DNA of 32,000 nt, from NCBI GenBank assembly GCA_021498095.1, contig JAIZWK010000001.1, positions 150,001-182,000 of the forward strand, given 5' to 3'. The stretch's first letter is position 1. Every line of letters starts with the position of its first letter. A program made the translations under genes and the position numbers. The notes beneath the pieces were generated by a model. It was not told the origin of the DNA. It saw only the letters and a list, made by a program, of their open reading frames with translations, and ran no database searches. Below are positions 30,414 through 32,000 of the stretch, in pieces. This stretch comes from Candidatus Harpocratesius repetitus (GTDB taxonomy: Archaea; Asgardarchaeota; Lokiarchaeia; Sigyniarchaeales; Promethearchaeaceae).

Positions 30414-32000
30414 ATGAATTACTTAGTTACTTTTGATATTCCCGTGGAGAATACTCGATTGCGAACAAAATTGGGGGAGAAATGCATGGATTACGGACTT
30501 TTTCGCATTCAATTATCTGTTTTTTGGGGGAGTTTAGAGAAAGCCGCTTTACAGGATTTAATGTTTGAATGTGAAGAGTTAATTGATAATTCACCTGCAG
30601 ATATAAGGTTTTTTGCCGTTTGTGATCAATGTTTAGAGAAGTCGTATGTGATAGCGAATAATTCTCAAATTCGAACTTTGCAAGCAAAAAAGTTAAGCGA
30701 GAATATAAAACTGACAACACTTTCGCACATTGATGTTGGATGGATAGAGAAATCTAAAGATTCACAGAAAAAGAAGAAATCGAAAAAGAAAAAATCGAAA
30801 AAGAAAGAGAGTTCAGAAAATCAAGAAAATATAGTCAATCAAGAAAGCGTTGTCAATCAAGAAAGTGCAATTAATCAAAAATCAGATAAAAAAGTAGAAA
30901 TCAGAGAAACGACAATAAATGGAACAGAAAAAGCGATAAATGAAACAGAAAAAGCAATAATTGAAGGATTAACGAAAGAACAGAGCAAAATAGCAAAAGT
31001 AACAGCCAAACCCGAGCCATTAATGAAGGAAAAGAAAAGAGGGAAATTGGATAATGGAATAGAAAAAAACGTTTTAGAATTATTCGATTTATCAGATGAT
31101 AAAGTTTGGAAGCAGTTTCAGTCAGAATTTTTAGAGCCTTCAATGATAGATGAGAATGAATTAAAACAAGGCGATAATTTAAAGAAATCAACTGATATAG
31201 AAAAGTTACGAGAGATAGAAAAAATAAATGGAAAAATTCATGAAATAAAAAAAGAAAAAGAAGAAATTCATAAAACAGGAAAGGAAAGAGAGAAAATACA
31301 TAAAACAGGAAAGGAAAGAGAGAAAATACAGAATATAGAAAAAGAAAGAGAAAATATACATGAGAAAGGAAGCGAAAGATTTGATGACACAGACTCAATT
31401 GAAGGAGGAATAAAGGAAGAAAAGAGAGATAATATCAACAACGATATTCTAAACAATGCGCTTAGTACTTTTTTGAGAGAGAGCCTTCAAGATGCAATTA
31501 AATTTTGTATTTTTTCTGAAAGTCAGTTTGATTATGAACAAACACATAAACCTGAAATTTCAAAAGAAATGTTATTAGAAAAACAAAAAGAGAAGTTAAG
31601 ACAAGATAAAAAGGAAGATTCAAGAGATTTATCAGAACCAGCAGATACACAACAAACACAACAAACACAACATACACAACATACACAACAATTAAAAGAC
31701 ATATCAGGCACCAAAATAGAAAAAGAAAAGGAAAACGATATAGAGCAGAATAGTATTAGTGAAAACAAAAGGGAAAGCTTTTTAGAAGAGTCAGATTTAG
31801 GAAGGATCCTTAGTTTAGGAGATGATTTGCAGCAGAAAGAATCAGTTCCGTTTTTTATGACGAAAGAATTAATGAAATGGTTGCAAACTGGAGAAGGAAA
31901 TGAATTAGTTGATGAATCGGAATCATTTCCCATAATTGAGAAAGATTTTATTGAGAAAGTTTTGTCTGAATCTGAAAAATATGTGCAAATGGACAAGAAT
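30414..32000 (+). CDS. cas2: Cas2 fused to a >430-aa low-complexity C-terminal extension (partial; runs off the right edge)
   Basis: MNYLVTFDIPVENTRLRTKLGEKCMDYGLFRIQLSVFWGSL...DIRFFAVCDQCLEK is canonical Cas2 (YDI-like, RIQ.SVF.G). Manually translated frame stays open for 529 codons to position 32000. Confidence 0.92.
   Translation, partial: MNYLVTFDIPVENTRLRTKLGEKCMDYGLFRIQLSVFWGSLEKAALQDLMFECEELIDNSPADIRFFAVCDQCLEKSYVIANNSQIRTLQAKKLSENIKLTTLSHIDVGWIEKSKDSQKKKKSKKKKSKKKESSENQENIVNQESVVNQESAINQKSDKKVEIRETTINGTEKAINETEKAIIEGLTKEQSKIAKVTAKPEPLMKEKKRGKLDNGIEKNVLELFDLSDDKVWKQFQSEFLEPSMIDENELKQGDNLKKSTDIEKLREIEKINGKIHEIKKEKEEIHKTGKEREKIHKTGKEREKIQNIEKERENIHEKGSERFDDTDSIEGGIKEEKRDNINNDILNNALSTFLRESLQDAIKFCIFSESQFDYEQTHKPEISKEMLLEKQKEKLRQDKKEDSRDLSEPADTQQTQQTQHTQHTQQLKDISGTKIEKEKENDIEQNSISENKRESFLEESDLGRILSLGDDLQQKESVPFFMTKELMKWLQTGEGNELVDESESFPIIEKDFIEKVLSESEKYVQMDKN
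31266..31379 (+). repeat. 30-nt in-frame repeat (IHKTGKEREK x2 plus 2 degenerate copies)
   Basis: Read directly. Confidence 0.85.
31647..31691 (+). repeat. 9-nt in-frame repeat (TQQ/TQH x5)
   Basis: acacaacaa/acacaacat units. Confidence 0.88.

What the first reader, a model, noticed from the sequence alone, without database searches (positions are those of the whole stretch)
30414..32000. Cas2 at least five times normal length
Seen: a ~95-aa Cas2 domain (catalytic Asp in FDI, CDQC) followed in frame by more than 430 aa with a poly-Lys patch (KKKKSKKKKSKKK), several short tandem repeats and acidic amphipathic islands (e.g. VLELFDLSDDKVWKQF, FMTKELMKWLQ), with no stop before the edge. Established: known Cas2 fusions are to Cas3 (I-F) or DEDDh (I-E). 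Inference: a long disordered tail or a linker to an unseen C-terminal domain, possibly a new Cas2 fusion class.
Basis: partly seen in the sequence, partly recalled or inferred. Interest (0 to 1): 0.75.

Follow-up and report, generated by a model that had tools for sequence, protein, structure and literature searches.

The report
Cas2 with 500-residue floppy tail
The only Cas2 (a CRISPR memory-making protein) of this Asgard archaeon is a normal 83-residue Cas2 whose short C-terminal tail has grown to about 500 mostly unstructured, repeat-built residues that still hold a few conserved short motifs and the usual hydrophobic end; it is an unusual variant, not a fusion to a new enzyme.

Summary
The ORF starting at 30414 is a real cas2. 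It runs 171 nt past the window edge and stops at 32171, giving 585 aa, against a median open frame of about 107 aa for Cas2 in 400 Asgard genomes.

No unseen C-terminal domain exists. Residues 1-83 are a complete Cas2 fold, including strand beta5. Everything after that is the "C-terminal tail", which is about 12 aa in the nearest short Asgard Cas2s.

The tail consists of charged, tandem-repeat-built linkers that evolve almost freely (dN/dS 0.5-0.9). Between them lie four conserved stretches under purifying selection:
- aa 84-110
- aa 216-246
- aa 456-525
- aa 546-585, which ends in the hydrophobic strand DIDVLLV

Short Asgard Cas2s end in the same kind of strand. Only three other proteins in the public collections searched share this tail (738, 418 and 401 aa, all Promethearchaeota), and they sit in the same operon: X-cas1-cas2-cas4-Y.

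My best reading is a Cas2 whose Cas1-docking end sits on a long flexible tether carrying extra binding motifs. The binding itself is inferred, not shown.

The operon is also the genome's top hotspot for purine-rich tandem repeats, so the linkers probably arose by slippage. I class it as a new variant of a known kind, of moderate interest. Other readers in this scan flagged this same stretch; I found no note of it on other DNA.

The parts
30414..30662 (+). Cas2 core, aa 1-83: ferredoxin fold b1-a1-b2-b3-a2-b4, short helix at CDQC, strand b5 (SYVIA)
   Evidence: Pfam PF09827 matches aa 1-76. The AF2 model has pLDDT above 90 for aa 1-75. All top Foldseek hits are Cas2 structures. dN/dS is 0.02.
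30663..30743 (+). Conserved extension, aa 84-110 (..IRTLQAKKLSENIKLTTLSHIDVGW), specific to the long-Cas2 clade
   Evidence: Identity to the three relatives is 62-78%. dN/dS is 0.03. AF2 pLDDT is below 50. Short Cas2s have no counterpart.
30744..31058 (+). Linker 1, aa 111-215: poly-Lys patch and NQES / TEKAIN tandem repeats
   Evidence: TRF finds units of 15, 18 and 21 nt. Identity is 2-30%. GRAVY is -1.48. dN/dS is about 0.9.
31059..31151 (+). Island A, aa 216-246 (ELFDLSDDKVWKQFQSEFLEPS)
   Evidence: Conserved in all four long Cas2s, 62-76% identity. 42% of residues are hydrophobic. No paralogue in the genome.
31152..31778 (+). Linker 2, aa 247-455: K/E-rich 10-aa repeats (KIHKTGKERE) and TQQ repeats
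   Evidence: TRF finds 30-nt x4.4 and 9-nt x5 repeats. Length and unit differ in the relatives. dN/dS is about 0.67.
31779..31988 (+). Island B, aa 456-525 (GRILSLGDDLQ..PFFMTKELMKWLQTGE..EKDFIEKVLSESE)
   Evidence: Aligned without gaps in all four proteins, 36-53% identity. dN/dS is 0.20 against Harpocratesius sp..
31989..32000 (+). Start of linker 3. The ORF continues beyond the window to 32171: linker 3 is aa 526-545 and island C is aa 546-585 (ETFVTLKDIMKNISLLEKK..KYHGFVDIDVLLV), followed by the stop
   Evidence: L008:414-2171. Island C is 60-82% identical, as conserved as the core. dN/dS is 0.11. The terminal hydrophobic strand is shared with short Asgard Cas2s.
28755..30278 (+). cas1, 507 aa, the only cas1 in the genome, with a ~170-aa K/E/N-rich insert
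   Evidence: Pfam PF01867 matches in two stretches. It is the single copy in the genome. The insert sits at the same site in relatives, at about 110, 55 and 15 aa.
30297..30392 (.). Purine-rich tandem repeat filling the cas1-cas2 intergenic spacer
   Evidence: TRF finds a 34-nt unit x2.7 (sequence).
13384..24745 (.). CRISPR array: 152 repeats of 37 nt, 151 spacers of 36-40 nt
25668..28520 (+). Gene X: 950-aa Cys-rich, repeat-laden protein conserved upstream of cas1
   Evidence: A 948-aa orthologue lies in L015 and a fragment in L016. No Pfam family matches above its cut-off.

Best explanation
This is the genome's single, functional Cas2, and its ordinary C-terminal tail has been hyper-extended. 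Residues 1-83 form the complete Cas2 fold, including strand beta5, and presumably make the Cas2 dimer that bridges two Cas1 dimers in the spacer integrase. In canonical Cas2 a short tail after beta5 docks onto Cas1. Here that tail is about 500 residues. It is a chain of charged, disordered linkers that grow and shrink by tandem-repeat slippage and are barely constrained in sequence. The linkers connect four short conserved segments. The last segment ends in the same kind of hydrophobic strand that ends short Asgard Cas2s. I infer that this terminal segment is still the Cas1-docking element, now on a long flexible tether. I also infer that the other islands (aa 84-110, 216-246, 456-525) are short binding motifs for other parts of the adaptation machinery (Cas1, Cas4, or the conserved neighbours X and Y). 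Shown here: the fold, the length, the conserved islands under purifying selection, the retained terminus, the conserved operon, and arrays that have kept acquiring regular spacers. Inferred: every binding step.
For: The ORF is 585 aa and real. The core is a canonical Cas2: Pfam, a confident AF2 model with b4 at 63-69, a short helix at 71-75 and a strand at 78-79, and Foldseek hits only to Cas2 structures. The literature says the Cas2 C-terminal segment is a3 plus swapped b5 followed by a tail, and that this tail alone binds Cas1 in S. pyogenes and contacts Cas1 in the E. coli and E. faecalis structures (PMC6182153). The Asgard series keeps a terminal hydrophobic strand while the stretch between b5 and that strand grows: 92-aa ..EEEVVIT, 97-aa ..EDILSM, 118/123-aa K-rich linker then GVLIF/GVVVL, 289-aa ..DKVTFI, and 401/585/738-aa ..DIDV(I/L)LV. 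The islands are conserved across lineages with saturated dS: dN/dS is 0.02 for the core, 0.20 for island B and 0.11 for island C, against 0.5-0.9 for the linkers. The linkers are tandem repeats with different units in each lineage. The tail occurs nowhere else among 1.84e9 representatives. The system works: there is one cas1 and one cas2 in the genome, a 152-repeat array with spacers of 36-40 nt, and a sister lineage with the same repeat and no shared spacers. The X-cas1-cas2-cas4-Y order is conserved in three lineages.
Against: No binding was demonstrated for any island. Full-length AF2 was uninformative because the alignment held only 4 sequences (pLDDT 38), so a small folded domain in aa 456-585 is not excluded. 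The conserved extension aa 84-110 (helix-like stretch plus HIDVGW) could be the real Cas1-contacting element, which would leave the C-terminus with another partner. A multiple alignment places it opposite the termini of short Cas2s. Only four sequences carry the islands, so the conservation statistics rest on few lineages. The similarity of the terminal strands is a pattern of hydrophobic residues, not demonstrable homology. No expression data exist.
Confidence: 0.6

Rival explanations
1. The tail is mostly tolerated junk. Slippage-prone purine-rich repeats have inflated an unconstrained linker, as they have inflated neighbouring genes and intergenic spacers. Neither the length nor most islands have a function. 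Only the terminal strand, and perhaps aa 84-110, matter.
For: The 11-kb adaptation operon ranks 1 of 4351 genome windows for purine-rich tandem repeats. The cas1-cas2 and cas2-cas4 intergenic spacers are the same kind of repeat. Linker dN/dS is 0.5-0.9. Tail length varies from 318 to 655 aa among close relatives. Cas1, X and Y carry variable inserts at fixed sites.
Against: Islands A, B and C are kept at dN/dS 0.1-0.3 while dS is saturated. The frame has stayed open over 300-650 codons in four lineages. Genome-wide, only 3.2% of proteins have 40 or more low-complexity residues, so tolerance of such inserts is not general.
Confidence: 0.22
2. Islands B and C (aa 456-585) form a small folded C-terminal domain of a new kind, making this a true Cas2 fusion.
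For: About 130 residues with 37-42% hydrophobic content and predicted helices align without gaps in all four proteins.
Against: No Pfam, PDB or Atlas match. No homologue occurs outside these Cas2s, whether free-standing or fused elsewhere. The two islands are separated by a variable linker that carries a ~45-aa repeat insertion in the 738-aa relative. Island B is only 29% identical in the 401-aa relative.
Confidence: 0.12
3. Assembly or annotation artefact: a frameshift or a missed stop has joined a normal cas2 to downstream sequence.
For: Repeat-rich DNA is error-prone. The only reads available come from the probable source sample.
Against: Three independent assemblies keep the same frame through to the same conserved C-terminus. 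There are 0 stops in 475 codons against 47 in each other frame. The contigs show no indels.
Confidence: 0.01

Closest known systems
Canonical stand-alone Cas2 (e.g. S. pyogenes 4QR0/5ZYF, S. solfataricus SSO1404 2IVY, SSO8090 3EXC)
   Same: Same fold (Foldseek probability 1.00, TM by target up to 0.85). Same Pfam family, conserved Asp on b1, position next to cas1, and layout of core followed by a C-terminal tail.
   Different: The tail is about 500 aa instead of about 10-25 aa. It contains clade-specific conserved islands and tandem-repeat linkers, giving a total length about 6 times normal.
Cas2/DEDDh trimmer-integrase fusion (type I-E; PMC10284694)
   Same: The Cas2 core is followed by an unstructured linker, 38 aa in that case.
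   Different: There the linker leads to a recognisable exonuclease domain. Here no second domain is detectable, and the linker is more than ten times longer.
Cas2-Cas3 fusion of type I-F
   Same: Cas2 forms the N-terminal part of a much longer polypeptide.
   Different: No helicase or HD domain is present. The locus is type III-D-like. This comparison rests on established knowledge and was not tested beyond the domain search.
Short and intermediate Asgard Cas2s from 400 Asgard genomes
   Same: Same core with the CxxC motif and a terminal hydrophobic strand. The intermediates (118, 123 and 289 aa) already show K-rich linkers between b5 and the terminus.
   Different: None carries islands A-C. 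The nearest short relative is only 48% identical in the core.

Membership tests
Cas2 (PF09827) | Sequence match to the family model above the curated cut-off | tested here: met
   55.7 bits against a cut-off of 23.8, aa 1-76; 57.9 bits in the genome search.
Cas2 (PF09827) | Ferredoxin-like fold b1-a1-b2-b3-a2-b4 plus a C-terminal a3/b5 segment | tested here: met
   AF2 on a 32-sequence alignment gives pLDDT above 90 for aa 1-75, with the elements in the canonical order. The top 33 Foldseek PDB hits are all Cas2.
Cas2 (PF09827) | Conserved metal-binding Asp at the end of b1 | tested here: met
   D8 is invariant in 32 Asgard Cas2s.
Cas2 (PF09827) | Encoded next to cas1 in a CRISPR-cas locus with an array | tested here: met
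   cas1 ends 135 nt upstream, a 152-repeat array lies in the same locus, and cas4 is downstream.
Cas2 (PF09827) | Forms a dimer that bridges two Cas1 dimers, with the C-terminal tail contacting Cas1 | not testable with these tools
   Needs biochemistry or a confident complex model. It is inferred only by analogy with PMC6182153.
Cas2 fusion proteins (Cas2-Cas3, Cas2/DEDDh) | A second recognisable catalytic domain in the same polypeptide | tested here: not met
   No Pfam family beyond Cas2. The PDB profile search finds only Cas2 plus one low-complexity hit. The tail profile finds only its own clade among 1.84e9 proteins.
Intrinsically disordered tail with short linear motifs | Low hydropathy and high charge, low-complexity repeats, fast-evolving sequence punctuated by short conserved islands | tested here: met
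   Tail GRAVY is -1.2 with 42% charged residues. It contains tandem repeats. Linker identity is 2-30% against 60-82% for the islands. dN/dS contrasts accordingly.
Intrinsically disordered tail with short linear motifs | Lack of stable structure | tested here: inconclusive
   Full-length AF2 pLDDT is 38, but the alignment has only 4 rows and the known Cas2 core also failed in that run.

The most novel reading that the evidence does not exclude
The disordered charged inserts are selected, not merely tolerated. In this Asgard lineage the whole adaptation module (X, Cas1, Cas2, Y) would be built as an assembly linked by disordered regions. The ~500-aa Cas2 tail would act as a multivalent hub or 'fly-casting' arm, or as a condensate scaffold, that gathers Cas1, Cas4 and the two unknown accessory proteins at the leader. 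That would be a eukaryote-like way of organising a prokaryotic immune machine.
Probability: 0.12. Interest if true: 0.75.

Novelty: new variant of a known kind. Interest (0 to 1): 0.45.

Why it matters
Cas2 is the most uniform Cas protein: about 90-110 aa, and otherwise known only in fusions to Cas3 or DEDDh. A Cas2 of 401-738 aa would be a different way of extending it, with added length that is a disordered tether holding conserved short motifs and the usual terminus. It could also be experimentally useful. The tail offers a natural test of how much the Cas1-Cas2 'ruler' depends on a rigid Cas2-Cas1 tail contact. The conserved islands are ready-made baits for finding partners, including two uncharacterised proteins (X and Y) conserved in the same operon. 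It also adds a defence-system example to the recurrent charged disordered extensions seen on Asgard proteins. If the tail is only slippage junk, it is still a clear case of how far a protein terminus can inflate while the functional end is preserved.

Tried and rejected
- Complex prediction (Cas1, two copies of Cas2 aa 1-112, and Cas2 aa 540-585 as partner) gave no verdict: score 0.00 and controls not run. It is not evidence either way.
- Full-length AF2 on the 4-row alignment gave pLDDT 38 and failed even on the Cas2 core, so it is uninformative.
- The ESM Atlas feature search with aa 440-585 gave no usable hit.
- The word-based search for shorter homologues of the core gave none. The same search restricted to the core in the 321-1024 aa range returned only the same four proteins.
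- Profiles of the four conserved segments, searched against all six-frame ORFs of the genome and all fetched loci, hit nothing but the long Cas2s themselves.
- For sequencing runs, no RNA holder is listed. There are only two DNA runs from the probable source sample, and their contigs cover the ORF without indels but are not independent.
- I considered that the poly-Lys patch could be a slippery poly-A site yielding a short isoform. The longest A run is only 6 nt, so I dropped the idea.
- I considered that beta5 is the extreme C-terminus, which would make the 'tail' an insertion in the b4-b5 loop. I rejected this after the AF2 core model placed b4 at 63-69 and a strand at 78-79, directly after the CxxC helix.
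- The PDB profile search for protein Y gave no hit.

Full report
**Observation.** The frame opening at window 30414 has no stop before the window edge. The window is positions 150001-182000 of a single-contig 4.36-Mb genome with 31% GC. I fetched the next 14 kb. The ORF ends at window coordinate 32171, so the protein is 585 aa.

Pfam Cas2 (PF09827) covers aa 1-76 at 55.7 bits, against a cut-off of 23.8. Nothing else matches. The poly-Lys patch, the tandem repeats (units of 15, 18, 21, 30 and 9 nt) and the quoted amphipathic islands are all present.

The tail frame has 0 stops in 475 codons, against 47 in each of the other two frames. None of 10000 shuffles stays open. Contigs of the probable source sample show no indels, but they are not independent evidence.

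**No hidden domain.** The tail has no Pfam match. A PDB profile search gives only Cas2 plus one low-complexity hit. I built a profile from the tails alone and searched it against 1.84 billion representative proteins. It returned only the three clusters of long Cas2s themselves, plus two marginal low-complexity hits. The tail therefore does not occur as a free protein or fused to anything else.

**Relatives.** Three other proteins share the architecture:
- 738 aa, named Candidatus Harpocratesius sp. by NCBI
- 401 aa, from a Promethearchaeota MAG
- 418 aa, from a Logan contig

 The host is thus an Asgard archaeon of the Lokiarchaeia/Promethearchaeota. The exact genus is my inference.

In 400 Asgard genomes I found 84 Cas2 matches in 73 genomes. 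Their stop-to-stop frames have a median of about 107 aa. Only five exceed 200 aa: 586 (this one), 291, 270, 215 and 213.

**Anatomy.** The alignment of the four long proteins breaks down as follows.

| Segment | Residues | Identity to relatives | dN/dS vs Harpocratesius sp. |
|---|---|---|---|
| Core | 1-83 | 82-98% | 0.02 |
| Clade-specific extension | 84-110 | 62-78% | 0.03 |
| Linker 1 | 111-215 | 2-30% | 0.94 |
| Island A | 216-246 | 62-76% | not computable |
| Linker 2 | 247-455 | mostly unalignable | 0.67 |
| Island B | 456-525 | 36-53% | 0.20 |
| Linker 3 | 526-545 | about 20-27% | 0.52 |
| Island C | 546-585 | 60-82% | 0.11 |

Synonymous sites are saturated between the two lineages (dS about 0.8-1.7).

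The linkers have GRAVY of -1.5 to -1.7. The islands are 37-42% hydrophobic, close to the folded core. The repeat units in the linkers differ between lineages, so expansion is ongoing and independent in each. The islands have no paralogue in this genome and none in the 289-aa Cas2 of a family-level relative.

**Where the tail starts.** I ran AF2 on aa 1-125 with a 32-sequence Asgard alignment. It gave a confident ferredoxin fold (pLDDT above 90 to aa 75), with these elements:
- b4 at aa 63-69
- a short helix at aa 71-75 (CDQCL)
- a strand at aa 78-79 (SYVIA)
- low confidence from aa 84 onward

 Foldseek matches only Cas2 structures. This is the canonical 'a3 plus swapped b5' C-terminal segment described for S. 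pyogenes Cas2. In that protein it is followed by a tail (residues 92-113) that alone binds Cas1. The tail also contacts Cas1 in the E. coli and E. faecalis complexes (PMC6182153). Everything after about aa 83 is therefore 'the C-terminal tail'.

**A graded series.** Short Asgard Cas2s (92-105 aa) have about 10-15 residues after b5. They end in a short hydrophobic strand such as EEEVVIT, EDILSM, DKVAYI or EKVTFY. Two Cas2s of 118 and 123 aa insert a K-rich linker before GVLIF or GVVVL. A 289-aa Cas2 ends in DKVTFI. The 401-, 585- and 738-aa proteins end in DIDV(I/L)LV.

The terminus is kept while the stretch before it grows from about 12 to about 655 residues. This is why I read the feature as an expanded tail that keeps its docking end, and not as a fusion. 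The equivalence of the terminal strands is a pattern-level inference.

**Is it functional?** The genome has one cas2 and one cas1. The adjacent array has 152 repeats and 151 spacers of 36-40 nt, with a mode of 38. The Harpocratesius sp. locus carries the same repeat with one base different, at least 45 copies, and no shared spacer. Both lineages must therefore have acquired regular-length spacers since they diverged. From this I infer that the long Cas2 is compatible with a working integrase ruler.

The gene order X (950 aa, Cys-rich) - cas1 - cas2 - cas4 - Y (772 aa, HGHADH motif) is conserved in three lineages.

**Locus-wide inflation.** Cas1 carries a ~170-aa K/E/N-rich insert. Relatives have inserts of about 110, 55 and 15 aa at the same site. 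X and Y also have variable repeat inserts.

Genome-wide, only 3.2% of 2769 long ORFs have 40 or more low-complexity residues. X, Cas1 and Cas2 rank 5th, 12th and 20th. The 11-kb operon ranks 1st of 4351 windows for purine-rich tandem repeats. The cas1-cas2 and cas2-cas4 intergenic spacers are themselves such repeats. This points to a slippage-prone, purine-rich locus as the source of the linkers. Whether their length is also selected remains open.

**Mechanism and odds.** My best reading (0.6) is a canonical Cas2 whose Cas1-docking end sits on a long, slippage-built flexible tether. The tether also carries two or three further short binding motifs. The rivals are:
- largely non-functional inflation, with only the terminus mattering (0.22)
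- a small novel folded domain at aa 456-585 (0.12)
- an assembly or annotation artefact (0.01)

The single complex-prediction job gave no verdict and is not used as evidence. No RNA data were available.

**Novelty.** The papers I read describe Cas2 as a short stand-alone protein (PMC6182153) or fused to DEDDh through a 38-aa linker (PMC10284694). The Cas2-Cas3 fusion is established knowledge. My literature searches turned up no description of a Cas2 with a several-hundred-residue disordered tail. NCBI names the relatives plainly as 'Cas2'. I rate this a new variant of a known kind, of moderate interest.

Noticed in passing
window 28755-30278: Cas1 has a ~170-aa K/E/N-rich insert between the two Pfam stretches. 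Relatives carry inserts of about 110, 55 and 15 aa at the same site, and a more distant Asgard Cas1 (G014, 465 aa) has one too.
   Followed up: partly
window 25668-28520: A 950-aa Cys-rich protein (X) with five tandem-repeat blocks lies between the CRISPR leader and cas1. A 948-aa orthologue sits at the same position in Harpocratesius sp., and a fragment in a third lineage. No family was found.
   Followed up: partly
L008:3364-5682 (window 33364-35682, beyond the edge): A 772-aa protein (Y) directly after cas4 is conserved in three lineages. It has an invariant HGHADH motif and a C-terminal SDH motif. The only match is a faint RMMBL hint (E 0.26 in 1 of 3 members) and there is no PDB sequence hit. 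It may be a very divergent metallo-beta-lactamase/beta-CASP nuclease acting in adaptation.
   Followed up: partly
window 25001-32000 and L008 to 6000: The adaptation operon ranks 1 of 4351 windows in the 4.36-Mb genome for purine-rich tandem repeats. The repeats lie in coding and intergenic DNA alike. GC and AT skew jump to about +0.3 at 25 kb.
   Followed up: yes
window 1114-12534: A type III-D-like effector module lies upstream of the array: Cas10 with an HD domain, several Csx7/Csm3-like RAMPs, a Csx10-like protein and unassigned genes. Its composition lacks the purine skew of the adaptation module.
   Followed up: partly
window 13946-13983 and 14247-14284: One spacer occurs twice in the array, about 300 nt apart. 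All other spacers (149 of 151) are unique.
   Followed up: no
L008:8625-9620 and L008:11245-11775: A segment of the 331-aa ORF at 8625-9620 (by position, the counterpart of the Cas6 genes in L015/L016) is repeated almost identically about 2.2 kb downstream. The two copies bracket a DUF4143/AAA ATPase gene.
   Followed up: no
L013:1495-2367 (G003): A family-level relative has an independent 289-aa Cas2 with a K/E-rich tail that lacks islands A-C but ends in DKVTFI. Tail growth may therefore have happened more than once.
   Followed up: partly
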